A DNA stretch of 57,676 nucleotides from NCBI GenBank assembly GCA_964608585.1, contig CAZSOL010000001.1, positions 15,990 through 73,665 of the forward strand. The letters run 5' to 3'. The notes below the pieces were generated by a model, which was not told the origin of the DNA, did not search any database, and was given only the letters and a program-made list of their open reading frames with translations. This DNA is from an uncultured Candidatus Saccharibacteria bacterium (GTDB lineage: Bacteria; Patescibacteriota; Minisyncoccia; Phycocordibacterales; Zambryskibacteraceae). Below, piece by piece: positions 3,223-27,654 of this stretch. The position numbers and the translations under genes were made by a program. Every line of letters begins with the position of its first letter. The first letter of the stretch is position 1.

Positions 3223-4341
3223 TTAAATAGGTAGGTGTTTGAGATAGTCGGAGATGCGGGATAGGGGGATAGTGTCTTGGGCACGGGTAGAGACGTTCCT
3301 TACCGTCACGGTGCCGTCTAGGGCCTCCTTCTGACCGACAATGATGTGGTACTTGGATTCTACAGCTTCTGGAGACTGCATCTGGGCAGCCAGCTTGTCT
3401 CGGCCTAGGTAGTGATATACAGGGAGTCTTGAAGCCCTAAGAGTCTCTATGAGAGACAGAGTCTTCATCCTCGCTTCGCGTCCAAGGTGGATGAGGTAGA
3501 ACTTGGACTTAGGGGCTTCTTTATATGTTTTATTTTCTTTACTCTTCTTCTCTCCATAAATAGTTGCGCCGATGAGAGAGAGCTCACGCTTGAAGCCGAA
3601 GCGCTTGGATAGGCGAGAGTATCGGTATCCTCCAGCCAAGAGTTTCCCCTCACTTCCACGAACGGTGAAGAGAGCTTCGGAACAGAAGTTCTTGTGTCCA
3701 ACAAGTTCTGGAGCAAAGCGATACTCTATGTTAAGAGCGTCTAAGTAGTCTATGATCTCTTTGAGGTTGCTCCTGCTTTGGGAGGTGAGACTAGCAATGG
3801 ATGTTGGGATGTCCTTCTTTAGAGGCTCTACCTCTTCGTGGTTTAGCTTGTGTAGGGAGAAGACGTCTTCCTTGAGGATCTTTTTGTTTTCAGCACCAAT
3901 GGGGTGGCAACTCTTGGCTAAGAAGTTCTTCAACTCTCTTTCGTATGAGGCTATGGAATCTTTGTCTCCTATAGAGTTTATCTCTACGACTAAGTCCTTG
4001 TAACCTTCTTCTGAGAGTATAGATAGGCTGGTACGAATGAGTTTGGCCTCCGCTACTCCTATAGGGTAGCCGACGAGCTCAAAGGAGTAGTCCCTGCCTC
4101 TTTTCCAAGAGAGAGCAAGTGGGTGAGGTAGAGAGCCCATCTTCTTGTCTATGTAGTGACGGATGAAGGCGGCCTTCTCTGGAGCATTACAGATAAGCCT
4201 GCCAGAAGTCTTCTCCACGTTTTCCTCACAATCCTTTGTCATCTTGATATCTATCTCACTAACCGAAGGAGTCTCTATCGGTGTGAAGCCGAAGTGCGCG
4301 GCAATCCAAAGAGGTCTATCAAACTCAATTTTCTTCTTCAT
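3223..4341 (-). CDS. hisS: Histidyl-tRNA-synthetase-like protein (class II core plus HisRS-type anticodon-binding domain) with divergent catalytic motifs
   Basis: GGYRYSRL resembles HisRS motif 3 (GGGRYD). The C-terminal FYLIHLG...IIVGQKEALDGTVTVRN resembles the HisRS anticodon-binding domain. The motif 2 arginines are not recognisable. I prefer the ATG at 4341 (MKKKIEF) over the track's TTG at 4353. Confidence 0.55.
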   Translation of the reverse strand: MKKKIEFDRPLWIAAHFGFTPIETPSVSEIDIKMTKDCEENVEKTSGRLICNAPEKAAFIRHYIDKKMGSLPHPLALSWKRGRDYSFELVGYPIGVAEAKLIRTSLSILSEEGYKDLVVEINSIGDKDSIASYERELKNFLAKSCHPIGAENKKILKEDVFSLHKLNHEEVEPLKKDIPTSIASLTSQSRSNLKEIIDYLDALNIEYRFAPELVGHKNFCSEALFTVRGSEGKLLAGGYRYSRLSKRFGFKRELSLIGATIYGEKKSKENKTYKEAPKSKFYLIHLGREARMKTLSLIETLRASRLPVYHYLGRDKLAAQMQSPEAVESKYHIIVGQKEALDGTVTVRNVSTRAQDTIPLSRISDYLKHLPI

Positions 4342-5937: not shown

Positions 5938-5966
5938 ACAAAAACCCCGCCAAGGCGGGGTTTTTG
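5938..5966. terminator. Rho-independent terminator, A-run/T-run on both sides
   Basis: aaaaCCCCGCcaagGCGGGGttttt lies directly after the rpsA stop at 5978. Confidence 0.8.
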
Positions 5967-7512: not shown

Positions 7513-8052
7513 ATGATTATCACTTACCAAGGCGGAGATTCTTTCAAAGTCTCTCAGGGAGAGTTGTCTGTCGTGGTGAACCCCAAGAGCAAGGTCTCAG
7601 CTGATGTAACACTTTTTAATCTTGGGAAAGAGGATACATCGGAGAAGTCTGGCTTCATTATTTCTGGTCCGGGGGAATACGAAGTTAAGGGGATCTCGGT
7701 CAAAGGCTTTCAGTCCAAGGGAGAGCAAGGAAGGATAAACACTATATATATGGTTGGTTTTGAGGGAGTGAATCTTTGCTTCTTGGGTAGTCTTGATACA
7801 GATGAGCTTCCCAGTGACACTCTTGAGAACTTAGAGGACATAGATATTCTCTTTGCTCCGGTCTCAAGACAGAAGCTAGCAGTGTCCCTTGAGCCAGCGC
7901 TTATCATCCCAGCAAGATATACACCAGATACGCTTAAGAAGTTCTTTAAGGAGTCTGGTGAGGACAATGTTAAGAGCGAAGACAAGCTTGTAATAAAGAA
8001 GAAGGACCTAGAAGGTAAGGAAGGTGAGATAATGGTATTGAAAGAGGAGTAG
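7513..8052 (+). CDS. MBL-fold (UPF0173-like) protein lacking an obvious HxHxDH motif
   Basis: 179 aa. The N-terminus MIITYQGGDSFKVSQGELSVVVNP resembles MKITyLGHSaF..idP of the metal-dependent hydrolases. No histidine cluster was seen. Confidence 0.4.
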   Translation: MIITYQGGDSFKVSQGELSVVVNPKSKVSADVTLFNLGKEDTSEKSGFIISGPGEYEVKGISVKGFQSKGEQGRINTIYMVGFEGVNLCFLGSLDTDELPSDTLENLEDIDILFAPVSRQKLAVSLEPALIIPARYTPDTLKKFFKESGEDNVKSEDKLVIKKKDLEGKEGEIMVLKEE

Positions 8053-23530: not shown

Positions 23531-24316
23531 ATGACAACGATGGAAGATCTTACAAAGACTCAAATCGTTCTCCTCACCTTGCTTGTGAGCTTCATTACCT
23601 CAATAGCTACTGGTATTATTACCACCTCACTTTTGGCCGAAGCTCCACAAGCAGTGACGCAGACGATAGACAGAGTTGTTGAGCGTACCATAGAGCAAGT
23701 CGCCCCAGGGACGAATGTTAAGGAGGTAACTATTGTCAAAGAGGATGACGCCATTGTCTCCTCTATTGAGTCTACATCAAGATCTGTGGTAAGAGTGCTC
23801 ACACCTCCAGATGGTAACGGAGCCTCACACTTTTATGCTCTTGGTGTTGTGGTTGGTAGACAGGGGTACATCCTTTCTGACAAGAGAGATGTTCAAGGGG
23901 GTACATACACCGTTGTCTTCTCAGATGGATCTAGCTCTAATGCATATGTCCACAAAATGAGTGAGAGTGGTAGTATGGTCATCTTCAAACTTCAGGCTGA
24001 TGATGCCAAGATAAGAAGTCTTACTCCTATAAAGCTTTCTTCTGTAGACCCAAAGCTTGGTCAGACGGTTGTAGCTATAGAGGGAGAAGTTAGGCGTTCT
24101 GTAGCGGTGGGCAGAGTCGTCTCGTTAGATGAGAACGTTGGCTCTGTTATGACTGATGTAAGTCCTTTGAATGAGACAGAGGGGGGGGCACTACTTAATC
24201 TTTCGGGTGAGCTTGTAGGGCTCAAGACCTCAAACTTTGACCTCACCTTGCCAAAGAGCTCTTACACCACAGTTTCAGCTTTGTCTAAATTTATAAGCAA
24301 TGCTTCCATTCAATAA
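23531..24316 (+). CDS. Membrane-anchored trypsin-like (HtrA/S1C-like) domain protein with the catalytic triad apparently substituted
   Basis: N-terminal TM segment, then an S1C-like scaffold (SVVRVL, GYILSDKRDV, VVAIEG, TDVSPLNETEGGALLNLSGELVGL). The GNSGG serine box reads ETEGG. Confidence 0.55.
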   Translation: MTTMEDLTKTQIVLLTLLVSFITSIATGIITTSLLAEAPQAVTQTIDRVVERTIEQVAPGTNVKEVTIVKEDDAIVSSIESTSRSVVRVLTPPDGNGASHFYALGVVVGRQGYILSDKRDVQGGTYTVVFSDGSSSNAYVHKMSESGSMVIFKLQADDAKIRSLTPIKLSSVDPKLGQTVVAIEGEVRRSVAVGRVVSLDENVGSVMTDVSPLNETEGGALLNLSGELVGLKTSNFDLTLPKSSYTTVSALSKFISNASIQ

Positions 24317-26972
24317 CTTCACAACTAAGGCTAAAGAAGCAGTAAGAAAGGCTCACGAGCTCGCTATTGAGCGTGGTCAGAATCACGTTAACCCTATACA
24401 CCTTCTTGCAGCCCTAATTCTCCAAGAGGAGAGTATGGTCATATCCATAATAGATAAGCTAGAGATTGACTCAATCCTTCTTACAGACTCTGTTCTTGAG
24501 GCAATAGAGAGTGGAGAGGCATCCCAGACGTTGTCTCCATCCTTCCAGATTTATCTAACTCCAGAGCTTGCTCATATCATTGAGTCATCCTCAAAGGTTG
24601 CTCATAGTCTTAACGACGAGTTTGTCTCGACCGAGCACCTCTTCCTCTCAGTACTTGAGACTCCAGGTGAGGCTAAGGATCTTCTAACAAAGTTTAAGAT
24701 TTCTAAGGATCCAGTTCTTCGTATTATAGAGGAGCTTAAGACCTCAGGCCCAGCTGAGCCAAAGGCAGAGAAGAAGTTCAAGTCTTTAAACAAGTACACA
24801 CGGTCTCTAACCAAACTTGCAAAGCAAAACAAGCTTGACCCTGTTGTTGGTCGAGACCAAGAGATCTCCCGCATTATCCAAATACTCTCCCGTAGAACAA
24901 AGAACAATCCAATACTCATTGGAGAGGCAGGAGTAGGCAAGACTGCTATTGCCGAAGGTCTAGCTATTAGGATGGCTTCCAACAACGTGCCGGAGTCACT
25001 CCGTGACAAGGAGTTGGTGTCGCTTGATCTAGGTCTTCTTATTGCTGGGACAAAGTATAGAGGTGAGTTTGAAGAGAGACTCAAAAATATAATAAAAGAG
25101 ATAGAGAAGTCAGAAGGCAAGATTATTCTCTTCATTGATGAGATACACACCATTGTAGGAGCTGGTGCTGCAGAAGGGTCTATAGATGCCTCTAATATGA
25201 TGAAGCCACCACTCGCTCGAGGAGAGCTTCGTGCCATTGGCGCTACAACCTTAAGAGAGTACCAGAAGCATATTGAGAAGGACCCAGCTCTTACGCGTCG
25301 CTTCCAGCCTGTGTACGTCAACGAACCCTCTATAGAAGATGCCATGACAATCCTCCGTGGACTTAAGGAAAGATACGAGCTATATCATGGAGTGCATATT
25401 ACTGATGATGCTATAAGAGCAGCAGTAACCTTCTCATCTCGCTACATTACTGATCGCTTCTTGCCAGACAAGGCGGTGGATCTTATAGACGAGGCAGCTT
25501 CGTTCCTTAAGATTTCTCTTGAGAACATGCCTCCAGTACTCCAAGAGACTCACTCTAAGGTAATGAAGTTAGAGATAGAGAGAGAAGCTCTAAAGAAGGA
25601 AACAAAGAAGCCCAAAGTTACCTCTAGACTTAAGGCCATAGAGAAGGAGATCGCCGACCTAAGAGAGAAGACCTCCGAGATAGAACTAAAATGGAAGAAT
25701 GAGAAGGAGACTGTAGGGGAGATCAAAGAGATAAAGAAGAATTTGGAGAGTACGCGTCTTGAGGCCGAGGCCGCTGAGGCCAAAGCTGATCTTGGTAAGG
25801 CCGCTGAACTTCGTTATAGCAAGATCCCCGAACTTGAGAAGGAGCTTGAGACTAAGTCTAAGAGGTTGAAGAAGCTCCAAAGTTCAAGAAGAATACTTAA
25901 GGAAGAGATAACTGAGGAGGATATTGCCACAGTGGTTAGTCGTTGGACTAATATCCCAGTTTCTAGAATGCTTGAGGAGGAAGCAGAAAAGCTTGGCCGT
26001 ATGGAAGAGTACCTCAAGAGACGCATCGTTGGCCAAGACGAAGCGGTAAGGAAGATCTCAGACACCGTGAAGAGGAGTCGCGCTGGCATCTCCGATCCAC
26101 AGCGTCCAATAGGATCCTTCATGTTCTTGGGTCCTACTGGTGTTGGTAAGACAGAGCTTACTAAGGCTCTAGCCGAGTTTATGTTTGACGATGAGAGAGC
26201 TTTGATACGTGTAGATATGAGTGAGTTTATGGAGAAGCACTCAGTATCCAAGCTTATAGGTGCTCCTCCGGGGTATGTAGGCTTTGACGAAGGAGGGACC
26301 TTTACTGAGATGATCCGACACAGACCTTACTCAGTCATACTCTTTGACGAGATAGAGAAGGCACACCCAGAAGTGTTCAATATACTTCTACAAGTTTTAG
26401 ATAACGGCAGACTAACGGATGCAAAGGGTCGGCTTATCAACTTCAAGAACACTATCATCATCCTTACCTCAAATGTCGGTGCTCAATACATAGACAAGAT
26501 GCAGACTATTGGCTTCTCTAAGGGAGAACAAGAGAGTTACGAAGGAGTGAAGGATAAAGTCTTGGATACGCTTAAGGACCACTTCCGCCCAGAGTTTCTA
26601 AATCGCTTGGACGACATTATTGTCTTTGATGTGTTGGCTCGCGAATCTATCAAAGATATTGTGAACATCCAAGTTGACTTGGTTAAGAAGCGCTTGGCAG
26701 ACAAGGAGATAGAGCTTGTTGTCTCTGACAAAGTGCTTGAAGAGCTTGCTCGTGAGGGTTACAACCCACAATACGGAGCAAGACCTTTGAAGCGCTTGAT
26801 ACAGACAAAAATACTTAACCCTGTGGCCACTATGATGATAGGGAACAAGGTCCTCTCTGGTGGCACGGTACTTGTAGATAAGAAGGGGAGCGAGTTTGTC
26901 TTTGAGGTGAAGAAGGGTAGGAGGAGTGGCTCTGTAAGCACCTTGGTTGATAAACAGCGCACAACTCGCTAA
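24300..26972 (+). CDS. clpB: AAA+ disaggregase ClpB
   Basis: 890 aa. Clp_N repeats, two Walker A sites (GEAGVGKTA, GPTGVGKTE), a long coiled-coil M-domain between the NBDs, and GARPLKR. Confidence 0.93.
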   Translation: MLPFNNFTTKAKEAVRKAHELAIERGQNHVNPIHLLAALILQEESMVISIIDKLEIDSILLTDSVLEAIESGEASQTLSPSFQIYLTPELAHIIESSSKVAHSLNDEFVSTEHLFLSVLETPGEAKDLLTKFKISKDPVLRIIEELKTSGPAEPKAEKKFKSLNKYTRSLTKLAKQNKLDPVVGRDQEISRIIQILSRRTKNNPILIGEAGVGKTAIAEGLAIRMASNNVPESLRDKELVSLDLGLLIAGTKYRGEFEERLKNIIKEIEKSEGKIILFIDEIHTIVGAGAAEGSIDASNMMKPPLARGELRAIGATTLREYQKHIEKDPALTRRFQPVYVNEPSIEDAMTILRGLKERYELYHGVHITDDAIRAAVTFSSRYITDRFLPDKAVDLIDEAASFLKISLENMPPVLQETHSKVMKLEIEREALKKETKKPKVTSRLKAIEKEIADLREKTSEIELKWKNEKETVGEIKEIKKNLESTRLEAEAAEAKADLGKAAELRYSKIPELEKELETKSKRLKKLQSSRRILKEEITEEDIATVVSRWTNIPVSRMLEEEAEKLGRMEEYLKRRIVGQDEAVRKISDTVKRSRAGISDPQRPIGSFMFLGPTGVGKTELTKALAEFMFDDERALIRVDMSEFMEKHSVSKLIGAPPGYVGFDEGGTFTEMIRHRPYSVILFDEIEKAHPEVFNILLQVLDNGRLTDAKGRLINFKNTIIILTSNVGAQYIDKMQTIGFSKGEQESYEGVKDKVLDTLKDHFRPEFLNRLDDIIVFDVLARESIKDIVNIQVDLVKKRLADKEIELVVSDKVLEELAREGYNPQYGARPLKRLIQTKILNPVATMMIGNKVLSGGTVLVDKKGSEFVFEVKKGRRSGSVSTLVDKQRTTR

Positions 26973-26980
26973 TATAGGCC

Positions 26981-27038
26981 TATTGCGTCGGTGGTAGAGC
27001 TTGCCCCGCCATGGCGGGGTGAAGTCAATTACAACAGA
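26981..27038 (+). pseudogene. 5' fragment of tRNA-Tyr (flank -7 to position ~31) with a 24-nt hairpin insert in the D-loop
   Basis: tattgcgtcggtggtagag (26981-26999) is identical to 27284-27302. gtcaattacaacaga (27024-27038) is identical to 27305-27319. The tg of the intact tRNA is replaced by cttgCCCCGCCatGGCGGGGtgaa. Confidence 0.8.
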
Positions 27039-27039
27039 T

Positions 27040-27282
27040 ATGTGGCACGTCTACATACTCAAGAGTACTAAGAATCAAAAGTTCTATATTGGGTGTTCGA
27101 ATAATTATCAGAGAAGGTTAGCAGAACACAACAATGGGGAGAACTTTTCTACTAAAAACGGTAGACCTTGGAATGTTGTTCGTGTTGAATCATTCGAAAA
27201 CCAAAACGGAGCTTATTTAAGGGAAAAACAGATAAAATCATACAAGGGTGGTAATGCTTTTAAAAAACTGCTAAATTTGTAG
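27040..27282 (+). CDS. Stand-alone GIY-YIG nuclease domain protein (80 aa)
   Basis: MWHVYILKSTKNQKFYIGCSNNYQRRLAEHNNG...: GIY-like VYI, YIG, and conserved R, E and N. I prefer the ATG at 27040 over the track TTG at 27001, which would read through the tRNA fragment. Confidence 0.75.
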   Translation: MWHVYILKSTKNQKFYIGCSNNYQRRLAEHNNGENFSTKNGRPWNVVRVESFENQNGAYLREKQIKSYKGGNAFKKLLNL

Positions 27283-27287
27283 TTATT

Positions 27288-27371
27288 GCGTCGGTGGTAG
27301 AGTGGTCAATTACAACAGACTGTAAATCTGTCGGCCTTAGGCCTACGAAGGTTCGAATCCTTCCCGGCGCA
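27288..27371 (+). tRNA. tRNA-Tyr (anticodon GTA), type II long variable arm
   Basis: GCGTCGG/CCGGCGC acceptor stem, anticodon stem-loop ACAGA-CTGTAAA-TCTGT, variable arm CGGCCTTAGGCCTAC and GGTTCGAATCC T-arm. 84 nt. Confidence 0.88.
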
Positions 27372-27378
27372 CAAAGTT

Positions 27379-27654
27379 ATGGAAAAAGTACCAGAACCAA
27401 AGTATTCAAGAGAGAAGTTTGATTTGTTGAAAAGTAAGTACAATGAGTCACCACTCTTTTTTTCTGAAGAAGTTGTTGCTTTTGTGAATCATCTAAGAGA
27501 GAGGTACCCCGATTATGAGAAGTATGCCTTCTATCACATACTGAGCGGTAGTAGCATAAAAGAGGAGTTTAAGCCTATAGAATACGAAGACTTCCCTGAG
27601 AACGACTCAGTTGAGACATTTATTGACAACCCAGAGAAATATAAGTTAGGATAG
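27379..27654 (+). CDS. Hypothetical acidic 91-aa protein
   Basis: ORF only. It starts 8 nt after tRNA-Tyr. No recognisable domain. Confidence 0.45.
   Translation: MEKVPEPKYSREKFDLLKSKYNESPLFFSEEVVAFVNHLRERYPDYEKYAFYHILSGSSIKEEFKPIEYEDFPENDSVETFIDNPEKYKLG

What the first reader, a model, noticed from the sequence alone, without database searches (positions are those of the whole stretch)
26981..27371. GIY-YIG nuclease ORF inserted exactly at the anticodon-stem boundary of a duplicated tRNA-Tyr 5' half
The 58 nt directly after the clpB stop (26981-27038) reproduce tRNA-Tyr from 7 nt upstream of its 5' end through the 5' strand of the anticodon stem. Block tattgcgtcggtggtagag (19/19) and block gtcaattacaacaga (15/15) are identical to 27284-27302 and 27305-27319 and lie in the same order. 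The only difference is that the D-loop dinucleotide tg is replaced by a 24-nt insert containing a perfect hairpin (CCCCGCCatGGCGGGG). Where the anticodon loop should begin, the 80-codon GIY-YIG ORF starts (ATG at 27040, 1 nt after the repeat). Its stop codon (27280-27282) lies 1 nt before the second repeat copy, which continues into an intact 84-nt tRNA-Tyr. The layout is therefore tRNA 5' fragment, then nuclease gene, then complete tRNA. The likely original tRNA promoter (TAATAT at 26970-26975, overlapping the clpB stop) now sits upstream of the fragment and the nuclease. This looks like the footprint of a minimal GIY-YIG (homing-endonuclease-type) cassette that targets a tRNA gene. It would restore the tRNA by carrying or duplicating the 5' half. 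There is no integrase, no intron core, and no duplication of the tRNA 3' end.
Basis: seen in the sequence. Interest (0 to 1): 0.7.

Follow-up and report, generated by a model that had tools for sequence, protein, structure and literature searches.

The report
Nuclease cassette nested in tRNA-Tyr gene
A tiny nuclease gene has inserted itself into the transcription unit of the tRNA-Tyr gene, leaving a hairpin-marked stump of the tRNA in front and a working tRNA behind, and the same three-part design recurs at many tRNA genes across several bacterial phyla, which points to a widespread, apparently undescribed kind of selfish gene cassette.

Summary
26981-26999 equals 27284-27302 (19/19). 27024-27038 equals 27305-27319 (15/15). 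A 24-nt GC hairpin replaces the D-loop TG. An 80-codon GIY-YIG ORF follows, then an intact tRNA-Tyr(GTA).

It is not a one-off footprint. In 76 of 80 genomes with a related ORF, the ORF lies on the same strand and directly against a tRNA gene (Tyr, Ser, Pro, Gly, Glu, Cys, His, Thr). On its other side lies a partial or full copy of that same tRNA. That copy is interrupted by stereotyped GC hairpin modules at cloverleaf loop positions.

The clpB to tRNA-Tyr site is unoccupied in 39 of 50 syntenic relatives. Where the stump and the intact tRNA can be told apart (L049, L050, L018), the intact tRNA is a different allele. So the cassette brings its own replacement.

The nuclease is a minimal Slx1/UPF0213-type domain, not an I-TevI-type homing enzyme. 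It is under purifying selection, and the hairpin stems co-vary.

Best reading: a selfish cassette that replaces tRNA genes. How it moves is inferred, not shown. I found no description of it in the literature I could search.

The parts
26947..26975 (+). Promoter-like site (TTGATA, 17 nt, TAATAT) inside the end of clpB. It is presumably the resident tRNA-Tyr promoter, and it now drives stump, ORF and tRNA.
   Evidence: 9 of 12 consensus matches. Unoccupied relatives have a -10-like box 8-12 nt before tRNA position 1. Function is inferred.
26981..26999 (+). Stump segment 1: tRNA-Tyr positions 1-15 plus 4 nt of upstream flank. Identical to 27284-27302.
27000..27023 (+). GC hairpin module CTTG-CCCCGCC-AT-GGCGGGG-TGAA, placed in the D-loop in place of TG. 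The stem is 27004-27010 paired with 27013-27019. There is no T-run after it.
   Evidence: The same module at the same D-loop site occurs in L001, L002, L004-L006, L009, L023 and L197. Stem co-variation of the related double modules is shown.
27024..27038 (+). Stump segment 2: tRNA-Tyr positions 18-32 (rest of the D-arm and the 5' strand of the anticodon stem). Identical to 27305-27319.
27040..27282 (+). ORF of 80 codons plus stop: a minimal GIY-YIG nuclease domain of the Slx1/UPF0213 lineage.
   Evidence: Pfam PF01541, E 3.7e-15. Invariant Y16, G18, R26, H30 and E62 in 32 homologues. PDB profile hits to 1zg2, 1ywl and SLX1. AlphaFold2 pLDDT 91 and Foldseek Slx1 TM 0.70-0.73. dN/dS 0.04-0.25.
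27288..27372 (+). Intact tRNA-Tyr(GTA), the only tRNA-Tyr in the window, 5 nt after the ORF stop.
   Evidence: ARAGORN. Rfam RF00005 at 60.2 bits.
24300..26972 (+). clpB, the conserved upstream neighbour that defines the insertion site.
   Evidence: clpB lies directly before tRNA-Tyr in 50 fetched relatives.

Best explanation
The segment 26981-27287 is a small selfish cassette living inside the tRNA-Tyr transcription unit. It has three parts: a stump of the tRNA gene (positions 1-15 and 18-32), a conserved GC hairpin module placed in the stump's D-loop, and a minimal Slx1/UPF0213-type GIY-YIG nuclease gene. The intact tRNA-Tyr follows directly after it.

Shown:
- It is one member of a large family of such cassettes.
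- In that family the ORF always sits between an intact tRNA and a hairpin-marked copy of the same tRNA.
- The site is unoccupied in most relatives.
- In informative relatives the intact tRNA is a different allele from the stump, so the cassette supplies a replacement tRNA and the resident gene is split at a loop.
- The nuclease and the hairpin are both under selection.

Inferred:
- The ORF is transcribed from the resident tRNA promoter, and tRNA processing of the downstream tRNA frees its message.
- Spread is by break-induced recombination. The nuclease nicks or cuts a structured DNA (the tRNA gene's loop region or the hairpin module), and repair copies the cassette from an occupied allele or a circular copy. 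The tRNA sequence serves as the homology arm. A single crossover on the long-arm side of the module gives exactly the layout seen here.
- The host then depends on the cassette's tRNA, which hinders loss.
For: Family-wide architecture:
- 76 of 80 genome loci have the ORF on the same strand within about 0-130 nt of a tRNA. The other 4 are cut by contig ends.
- All 23 tRNA-Tyr loci, and the Ser, Cys, Gly, Glu and Pro loci, carry a tRNA copy with GC modules on the far side of the ORF.
- Modules sit at loop positions: 39 in the D-loop, 15 in the anticodon loop, 7 at the acceptor/D junction.
- GC hairpins are about 10 times denser within 200 nt of these ORFs than elsewhere.

Insertion:
- Only 2 of 108 loci with the identical tRNA-Tyr 41-mer have the ORF.
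- 39 of 50 clpB to tRNA-Tyr sites have 12-178-nt spacers.
- Occupied genomes are scattered in a ClpB tree. The window's nearest ClpB relatives in the tree and in the tblastn identities (L097 and L159, 83%) lack it.

Replacement tRNA:
- In L049 both halves of a resident tRNA-Ser (acceptor GGAGAGG) flank the ORF plus an intact tRNA-Ser with acceptor GGAGGCG/CGCCTCC. The same module, with an identical 23-nt loop insert, sits at both junctions.
- In L050 and L018 the stump also belongs to another allele.

Selection:
- dN/dS is 0.04-0.25 with dS saturated, and the catalytic residues are invariant.
- In the double modules 95% of cells are paired, 6 of 14 pairs change on both sides, and 0 of 500 shuffles reach this.

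Coupling of protein and site:
- ORF clades follow tRNA isotype and module type and site. The nearest neighbour has the same isotype in 58 of 74 cases against 27% expected.

Decay and turnover:
- A frameshifted copy and tandem arrays occur (L074, L080, L016). ORF-less scars occur (L105, L133, L140).

Enzyme and analogue:
- Nuclease lineage. Slx1 is a structure-selective nuclease (PMC6902002), and prokaryotic Slx1-like proteins are minimal stand-alone domains (PMC1564403).
- Analogue: mitochondrial mobile endonuclease ORFs that carry a replacement gene end and displace the native one (PMC3630166).
Against: - No cleavage, transfer or transcript data exist.
- The intact tRNA beside the cassette has the same 41-mer as 106 unoccupied genes. 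So a sequence-specific enzyme whose target is destroyed by insertion would also cut its own host copy. Self-immunity is unexplained.
- An 80-aa domain has no evident way to recognise a sequence.
- In the window the stump and the tRNA are identical, so here one cannot tell which copy was brought in.
- No 3' remnant of a resident tRNA follows the tRNA in the window.
- No near-identical pair of genomes with and without the cassette was found. All relatives are at most about 75% identical in clpB DNA, so recent mobility is not shown.
- ClpB and GIY distances correlate modestly (Mantel r 0.40, p 0.03, 8 genomes). This fits long vertical residence with losses as well as it fits transfer.
- The stump is conserved beyond what a by-product needs.
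- One locus (L003) has a non-GIY ORF in the same kind of duplication.
Confidence: 0.58

Rival explanations
1. The hairpin-bearing tRNA stump is a functional RNA partner of the nuclease. It could be a guide or scaffold, as in transposon-encoded guide-RNA systems such as OMEGA. It could be an antitoxin-like decoy or an autoregulatory operator. The cassette would then be a two-component RNA-protein system. The tRNA-identical segments specify the target (tRNA gene or tRNA), and the hairpins bind the protein.
For: - The leader is conserved like a functional RNA. The window and L001 share the whole stump and module up to tRNA position 30 although the ORF's synonymous sites are saturated.
- Stems co-vary while loops vary and tolerate 20-40-nt inserts.
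- Stump positions are 96.5% identical to the genome's own tRNA and track lineage-specific acceptor changes, for example GCGCAGG in L197.
- The module always lies close to the ORF (typically 9-27 nt before the ATG, or 3-15 nt after the stop; 45-73 nt in L039 and L016), on the same strand, in a fixed orientation relative to the tRNA.
- ORF clades match module type and site.
Against: - Stumps decay in some loci (L197, and the second copy in L003) and persist without the ORF (L105, L133, L140).
- The stump can lie 5' or 3' of the ORF and ranges from 20 nt to a full-length copy. That is hard to square with one RNA architecture.
- An 80-aa domain is very small for guided cleavage.
- A guide identical to the adjacent intact tRNA gene would target the host's own copy.
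- No Rfam family matches.
Confidence: 0.14
2. The cassette is no longer, or never was, self-mobile. An ordinary small nuclease gene (a DNA-repair or RNA-metabolism accessory) exploits strong tRNA promoters. The duplications arise from local unequal recombination. The GC hairpins are message-stabilising or insulating stem-loops at the end of the mRNA that tRNA processing does not define.
For: - The ORF is under purifying selection.
- There is a modest vertical signal.
- The module is always at the mRNA end away from the tRNA, 5' in one polarity and 3' in the other.
- The same stem is used by a canonical terminator in this window at 5946-5959.
- The window leader folds into one long stem-loop.
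Against: - Distribution is patchy: 2 of 108 identical tRNA-Tyr genes are occupied.
- Occupation of at least eight different tRNA isotypes, with a matching stump each time, needs repeated site-specific events.
- The intact tRNA is a foreign allele in L049, L050 and L018.
- Modules are placed inside the tRNA copy at loop positions rather than beside it.
- Frameshifted copies and scars indicate turnover.
Confidence: 0.15
3. The hairpin modules are folded recombination sites, comparable to integron attC sites or other structure-recognised sites. A recombinase encoded elsewhere in the genome uses them. The GIY-YIG gene is merely the commonest cargo of tRNA-targeted cassettes.
For: - The layouts equal the product of a single crossover between a circle carrying stub-module-stub and the tRNA gene.
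- L049 has the module at both junctions.
- L003 carries a non-GIY 203-aa ORF between an intact tRNA-Tyr and a module-bearing copy.
- An archaeal precedent exists for a 5' tRNA fragment, then an element with a recombinase, then an intact tRNA (PMC3293823).
Against: - No recombinase lies in or next to the cassette in the window or in the loci read.
- Modules are strongly tied to GIY ORFs, and ORF clades follow module type. Passive cargo would not do that.
- The window's other genes were not screened for recombinases.
Confidence: 0.08

Closest known systems
Mobile endonuclease ORFs of fungal mitochondria that create gene hybrids (Allomyces atp6; Glomus atp6, atp9, cox2, nad3), as described in PMC3630166
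   Same: A free-standing endonuclease ORF (GIY-YIG in Glomus atp9) is inserted in a conserved gene together with a replacement copy of the gene's end. The native end is displaced and remains next to it as a fragment. The hybrid gene stays functional. L049, L050 and L018 show the same logic for tRNA genes.
   Different: Here the hosts are bacterial chromosomes and the target is a tRNA gene. Either end of the gene can be replaced. The nuclease is an 80-aa bare domain of the Slx1 lineage. The displaced copy carries stereotyped GC hairpin modules. In the window the two copies are identical, so replacement cannot be read directly.
Phage T4 SegB, a free-standing GIY-YIG homing endonuclease in the tRNA gene cluster (PMC2330249; PMC13096335)
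   Same: It is a GIY-YIG nuclease gene lodged among tRNA genes. It promotes inheritance of the tRNA region, and according to PMC13096335 it promotes segmental amplification of loci that include tRNA-Tyr. Tandem ORF/tRNA arrays occur here too (L074, L080, L016).
   Different: By general knowledge of Seg-type enzymes (not verified from the cited papers), SegB is a multi-domain, site-specific phage enzyme. The family here is chromosomal, absent from 50,697 phage records and nearly absent from 2.9 million viral contigs. It has only the catalytic domain, and it comes with tRNA stumps and hairpin modules.
Prokaryotic stand-alone Slx1-like / UPF0213 GIY-YIG proteins (PDB 1zg2, 1ywl; PMC1564403)
   Same: This is the best sequence and fold match. 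The domain is minimal with no auxiliary domain. PMC1564403 notes a fusion of such a domain to a TrmH-type tRNA (Gm18, D-loop) methyltransferase and suggests a link to RNA metabolism.
   Different: No function, tRNA-gene linkage or hairpin module is reported for that family in the papers I could read. This clade has its own C-terminal motif K-S-Y-K-G-G-N-A-F-K-K-L.
Integrative elements and their miniature derivatives in tRNA genes (tyrosine-integrase islands; archaeal pNOB8-type elements, PMC3293823)
   Same: The element lies between a complete tRNA gene and a partial direct repeat of it. PMC3293823 describes a 5' tRNA fragment 1.8 kb upstream of the complete gene.
   Different: There is no integrase here and the cassette is only about 300 nt. 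The repeat is interrupted by hairpin modules at loop positions. Both 5' and 3' polarities occur in one protein family.
Small GC-rich palindromic mobile elements of organelle genomes (double-hairpin elements, yeast GC clusters, sponge hairpin elements; PMC2800124, PMC4478555)
   Same: They are short GC-rich single or double hairpins found inserted in or near genes for structured RNAs, in genomes that also carry mobile endonuclease ORFs.
   Different: No sequence relationship was tested. The modules here are confined to tRNA copies beside one nuclease family rather than dispersed. Only one other match exists in the 57.7-kb window, and it is a terminator.

Membership tests
GIY-YIG nuclease superfamily (Pfam PF01541) | Profile match above the curated cut-off, with the conserved Tyr...Tyr-x-Gly, Arg, His and Glu present | tested here: met
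   56.4 bits against a cut-off of 22.6. Y5, Y16, G18, R26, H30 and E62 are invariant or nearly so in 32 homologues.
Slx1 / UPF0213 lineage of stand-alone minimal GIY-YIG domains | Closest sequence and fold relatives are UPF0213 and Slx1 rather than the UvrC or I-TevI lineage, and there is no auxiliary domain | tested here: met
   Profile hits to 1zg2 (8.6e-11), 1ywl (1e-9) and SLX1 (about 1e-5), against I-TevI at 2e-4. Foldseek gives Slx1 TM 0.70-0.73 and I-TevI 0.55. The protein is 80 aa.
Slx1 / UPF0213 lineage | Structure-selective cleavage of branched or hairpin DNA | not testable with these tools
   This needs biochemistry. It is known for eukaryotic Slx1-Slx4 (PMC6902002).
GIY-YIG homing endonucleases (I-TevI, I-BmoI, Seg proteins) | Catalytic domain joined by a linker to a sequence-reading DNA-binding domain | tested here: not met
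   The ORF is 80 aa, and the domain fills residues 1-67 plus a short helix. TIGR01453 scores 22.7 bits against a cut-off of 56.
GIY-YIG homing endonucleases | Presence/absence polymorphism of the gene at one conserved site | tested here: met
   39 unoccupied sites and 2 occupied (3 with the window) among clpB to tRNA-Tyr loci. The comparison is only between species-level lineages.
GIY-YIG homing endonucleases | The enzyme cleaves the unoccupied allele, and the occupied allele is immune | not testable with these tools
   Sequence argues against simple immunity. The intact tRNA beside the cassette equals unoccupied genes over 41 nt.
Mobile-ORF gene hybrids (mitochondrial type, PMC3630166) | The endonuclease ORF travels with a replacement gene segment that differs from the displaced native segment | tested here: inconclusive
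   In the window the two copies are identical. The feature is met in relatives L049, L050 and L018.
tRNA-targeting integrative elements | A tyrosine or serine recombinase gene in the element, with a direct repeat of the tRNA 3' end | tested here: not met
   The cassette holds one ORF, a GIY-YIG domain. The repeat is the 5' part of the tRNA. The rest of the window was not screened for recombinases.
Group I intron in a tRNA gene | An intron ribozyme core interrupting the tRNA, with the ORF inside the intron | tested here: not met
   No intron family appears at E up to 10. The functional tRNA is uninterrupted.
Intrinsic terminator (for the hairpin at 27004-27019) | A GC stem-loop followed by a T-run | tested here: not met
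   The terminator scan does not call it. The tail is TGAAGTCAATT. By contrast the 5946-5959 hairpin is flanked by A5 and T5.

The most novel reading that the evidence does not exclude
The 80-aa nuclease and its GC hairpin module together form a new kind of mobile system that finds its target by nucleic-acid structure or by a tRNA-derived RNA, rather than through a protein DNA-binding domain. The enzyme would act at cloverleaf loop positions of tRNA genes (D-loop, anticodon loop). The module would be the element's recognised end or the handle of a tRNA-templated guide. The element would make itself indispensable by swapping the host's tRNA gene for its own copy, as a natural cleave-and-rescue drive.
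Probability: 0.22. Interest if true: 0.92.

Novelty: new variant of a known kind. Interest (0 to 1): 0.8.

Why it matters
If the reading holds, thousands of small 'GIY-YIG family' genes are not stray repair genes. The profile search found 5,111 clusters at 50% identity with E at most 1e-10. They would be the payload of a compact selfish cassette that colonises essential tRNA genes in Patescibacteria, Ignavibacteria, Bacteroidota, Omnitrophota and others.

It would be a bacterial counterpart of the mitochondrial gene-hybrid elements. It would be an example of an element that secures its place by replacing an essential gene. It would also offer a minimal nuclease whose targeting principle is unknown.

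Practical consequences:
- It explains many mis-called proteins whose N- or C-terminal extensions are translated tRNA or hairpin sequence.
- It explains extra 'tRNA' calls that are hairpin-bearing copies.
- It warns that tRNA genes next to such cassettes may be horizontally acquired alleles.

Tried and rejected
- Known RNA families. Rfam at E up to 10 on 26800-27500, at gathering score on ten related loci, and at E up to 0.01 on six more, gave only tRNA. I rejected group I intron, riboswitch and known leader RNA.
- Terminator for clpB. The hairpin has no T-run.
- Phage origin. The family has no match in 50,697 phage records and 2 weak matches in viral contigs. PHROGs and PADLOC give only weak generic homing-endonuclease hits.
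- Other copies in the window. There are none.
- Dispersed hairpin family in the window. The only other match is a terminator.
- Population-level unoccupied allele. No locus is more than about 75% identical in clpB DNA to an occupied one, and the exact protein is on one contig only.
- Simple target-site duplication. This was rejected because the repeat runs to the tRNA end and is split by the module.
- Ends-in break repair with the cut at the module. This was considered and set aside because it would erase the module.
- Literature. Nine full-text searches found no description of GIY-YIG genes paired with hairpin-marked tRNA copies. Subscription journals are not covered.
- One script call returned no answer. 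Its output file was recovered and read.
Full report
**1. The observation**

- clpB ends with TAA at 26970-26972.
- From 26981 to 26999, and again from 27024 to 27038, the DNA repeats 27284-27302 (19/19) and 27305-27319 (15/15).
- The second copies are positions -4 to 15 and 18 to 32 of a tRNA-Tyr(GTA) called at 27288-27372 by ARAGORN. Rfam scores it at 60 bits.
- Between the two blocks the tRNA has TG. The upstream copy has 24 nt, CTTG CCCCGCC AT GGCGGGG TGAA.
- One base after the upstream copy an ATG opens an 80-codon ORF (27040-27282). It matches the GIY-YIG domain at E 3.7e-15.
- A short-word BLAST of all nine tRNAs of the window against the window shows that only tRNA-Tyr has such a partial copy (E 2e-5 and 0.005). 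The ORF is single-copy.
- A promoter-like TTGATA-17-TAATAT lies at 26947-26975.
- The window's ClpB is 76% identical to that of a Minisyncoccia genome, a class of the phylum Minisyncoccota (Patescibacteria/CPR-type bacteria by general knowledge).

**2. The first clue that this is not a one-off**

Database homologues at 60-70% identity carry odd N-terminal extensions (MPRHGGVKSITT..., SLPRLGGVKSIAY...). These are the translation of this very hairpin and tRNA segment. Others carry C-terminal extensions (VGGRVVNYNRL, GEVAEWSKAAHC) that are translated tRNA 5' halves. So the stump, the hairpin and the adjacent tRNA recur elsewhere.

**3. Family-wide anatomy**

A scan of one genome per species with an alignment of the domain returned 245 confirmed places, of which 80 were kept.
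- In 76 of the 80 the ORF is on the same strand as a tRNA gene and within about 0-130 nt of it. The other four are cut by contig ends.
- The tRNAs are Tyr, Ser (four isoacceptors), Pro, Gly, Glu, Cys, His and Thr.
- The hosts are mostly Patescibacteria, with some Ignavibacteria, Bacteroidota, Omnitrophota, Thermotogota and Calditrichota.

Two polarities exist.
- In the window's polarity the order is resident promoter, 5' part of the tRNA with GC hairpin module(s), ORF, intact tRNA.
- In the other polarity the order is intact tRNA, ORF, module, 3' part of the tRNA.
- In the Pro loci, full-length copies with the D-arm or T-arm replaced by the hairpin flank the ORF, sometimes as tandem arrays. 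L074 has four units, one of them frameshifted.

The modules are stereotyped.
- There is a single form, CTTG-CCCCGCC-n-GGCGGGG-TGAA, and a double form, CCACCGCC-n-GGCGGGG-(T/C)CCCGCC-n-GGCGG...
- They sit at single-stranded positions of the cloverleaf: 39 in the D-loop, 15 in the anticodon loop, 7 at the acceptor/D junction.
- They usually lie close to the ORF on the side away from the intact tRNA: 9-27 nt before the ATG, or in most of the other-polarity loci 3-15 nt after the stop (45 nt in L039 and 73 nt in L016). Their orientation relative to the tRNA strand is fixed.
- Perfect GC hairpins are about ten times denser within 200 nt of these ORFs than elsewhere.

**4. It is an insertion**

An exact 41-mer of the window's tRNA-Tyr fetched 120 metagenome loci.
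- Of 108 with enough upstream sequence, 2 have the ORF.
- clpB directly precedes tRNA-Tyr in 50. Of these, 39 have a spacer of only 12-178 nt with a -10-like box just before the tRNA. Two are occupied by the cassette (spacers 324 and 351 nt, against 315 in the window). Nine hold unrelated inserts.
- Occupied genomes are scattered in a ClpB tree. The window's nearest ClpB relatives (83%) lack the cassette.
- Three relatives keep the stump and module with only 7-21 nt before the tRNA. In L133 that spacer looks like the fused start and end of the ORF. These are probably deletion scars, though only L133 shows ORF remains.
- No near-identical occupied/unoccupied pair was found.
- ClpB and GIY distances correlate modestly (r 0.40, p 0.03). 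So part of the history is vertical.

**5. The cassette carries a replacement tRNA**

- In L049 the stump before the ORF has acceptor GGAGAGG. The intact tRNA-Ser after the ORF has GGAGGCG paired with CGCCTCC. Beyond it lies the matching 3' half of the first gene. The same double module, with an identical 23-nt loop insert, sits at both junctions.
- In L050 the stump (GGTGGGATGGCCGAGCGG...) and the intact tRNA (GGAGAGGTCGCATAGTGG...) agree only around the module.
- In L018 both halves of one tRNA-His allele flank another allele plus the ORF. L063 (Gly) has the same two-sided layout, although its copies are not visibly different alleles.
- Eight of 18 loci of the second polarity have such a second remnant on the far side of the intact tRNA.

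This is the logic of the mitochondrial mobile-ORF gene hybrids (PMC3630166). All layouts equal the product of one crossover between the tRNA gene and a circle (or an occupied allele) carrying tRNA arm, module, short stub and ORF. The crossover falls in the long arm. A crossover on the other side would put the module into the only functional copy. In the window the two copies are identical, so this step is inferred by analogy.

**6. The protein**

- Profile search of solved structures gives UPF0213 proteins (1zg2, 1ywl) first, then SLX1, then I-TevI.
- An AlphaFold2 model (pLDDT 91) superposes best on Slx1 (TM 0.70-0.73) and less well on I-TevI (0.55).
- It is a bare catalytic domain. The homing-endonuclease subfamily model is far below its cut-off.
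- The catalytic residues are invariant. dN/dS is 0.04-0.25 while dS is saturated.
- ORF clades follow tRNA isotype and, more closely, module type and site. For example, one clade with the D-loop double module spans four Ser isoacceptors, Tyr and Cys.
- The family has 5,111 clusters at E at most 1e-10. It is essentially absent from phages.
- PMC1564403 describes prokaryotic Slx1-like proteins as minimal stand-alone domains. It notes a fusion to a D-loop (Gm18) tRNA methyltransferase.

**7. The module and stump are maintained**

- In 25 double modules 95% of cells pair. Six of 14 pairs change on both sides (33 cells). No shuffle of 500 reaches this, and slid controls pair at about 50%.
- In the window's clade the stems and the CTTG/TGAA flanks are kept, with compensations such as TCCCGCC/GGCGGGA and TTCCGCC/GGCGGAA. 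The loops vary.
- Stump positions are 96.5% identical to the genome's own tRNA.
- The window and L001 share the stump and module as far as tRNA position 30 despite saturated synonymous divergence of the ORF.

This is more than a footprint. Either the leader works as RNA or as a DNA structure, or it is refreshed by re-insertion or gene conversion. I could not decide between these.

**8. Mechanism, with its status**

Shown: the architecture, the insertion, the replacement in informative loci, and selection on the protein and the hairpin.

Inferred:
- Transcription comes from the tRNA promoter. There is no room for, and no call of, another promoter before the ORF. ORF ends such as TTAATA may serve the downstream tRNA.
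- The message is released by tRNA processing.
- Spread is by nuclease-stimulated recombination, with tRNA sequence as the homology arm.
- The module is the element's structural cis-site for a structure-selective enzyme.

Main objection: the intact tRNA beside the cassette is identical to unoccupied targets, so self-immunity is unexplained.

Rivals: an RNA partner or guide (0.14), a non-mobile accessory gene with stabilising hairpins (0.15), and trans-mobilisation by a recombinase with the module as a folded site (0.08).

**9. Known relatives and novelty**

The closest known things are:
- the mitochondrial mobile-ORF hybrids (PMC3630166);
- T4 SegB among tRNA genes (PMC2330249, PMC13096335);
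- integrative elements in tRNA genes, including an archaeal case with a 5' fragment (PMC3293823);
- GC hairpin elements of organelles (PMC2800124, PMC4478555).

None combines a bare Slx1-type domain, tRNA gene replacement in bacterial chromosomes and loop-placed hairpin modules. Nine literature searches found no description.

I rate it a new variant of a known kind, with interest 0.8. The window's locus is a clean, compact example.

Noticed in passing
window 27379-27654 (+): A 91-codon ORF starts 6 nt after the tRNA-Tyr 3' end and ends 6 nt before rpmG. It has no Pfam, PHROGs or PADLOC match and no homologue in any of the 200 fetched loci. In relatives rpmG follows tRNA-Tyr directly. So the tRNA is flanked on both sides by lineage-specific small ORFs.
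   Followed up: partly
window 5941-5966: AAAAA-CCCCGCC-AA-GGCGGGG-TTTTT is a canonical two-way terminator. It has the same 7-bp stem as the hairpin in the tRNA stump, and it is the only other match to the motif in the window.
   Followed up: yes
L003 3452-4151: A 203-aa ORF with no significant family match and a hydrophobic N-terminus lies between the intact tRNA-Tyr (3321-3406) and a second tRNA-Tyr copy. That copy starts at position 9, carries the same D-loop module and runs to CCA. The same kind of duplication can therefore hold cargo other than the nuclease. A decayed third copy lies at 3259-3308.
   Followed up: partly
L001 3333-3510; also L086, L093 (two in tandem), L108, L133, L140 and about 20 more (tRNA-sense coordinates): Many tRNA-Tyr genes, occupied or not, are followed by a conserved non-coding stretch of about 150-230 nt. 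It consists of a terminator hairpin, then a T-arm split in its loop by a structured insert, then a repeat of the tRNA 3' end (positions about 66-84). There is no Rfam match. It could be a remnant of an older invasion at the T-loop, a miniature integrative element, or an unknown RNA.
   Followed up: partly
L142 and L180 (tRNA-sense coordinates 2618-2770 and 7540-7700): A different non-coding insert of about 135 nt follows tRNA-Tyr positions 1-18 and precedes an intact tRNA-Tyr. The D-loop site is the same, but there is no GIY ORF and no CCCGCC module.
   Followed up: no
L105, L133, L140 (tRNA-sense coordinates): These are ORF-less versions. The stump and hairpin module lie 7-21 nt before the intact tRNA-Tyr. 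In L133 the spacer ATGTTTAGTCAAATTTAATAC looks like the fused start and end of the ORF.
   Followed up: partly
proteins P0008, P0016, P0018, P0019, P0022, P0023, P0027, P0030, P0033, P0063 and many: Public gene calls for this family often carry 10-55 extra residues. N-terminal extensions translate the hairpin and tRNA stump. C-terminal ones read into the downstream tRNA, as far as the TAA of the Tyr anticodon loop. These are annotation artefacts that betray the architecture.
   Followed up: partly
L074 2450-4050; L056 2790-3310; L052 1-480: These are tandem arrays of the nuclease ORF alternating with full-length tRNA-Pro copies whose D-arm (and once the T-arm) is replaced by the GC hairpin. 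ARAGORN calls them all tRNA-Pro, and Rfam scores the two L056 copies as tRNA at 42-52 bits; the L074 and L052 copies did not reach Rfam's gathering score. Whether they function is unknown.
   Followed up: partly
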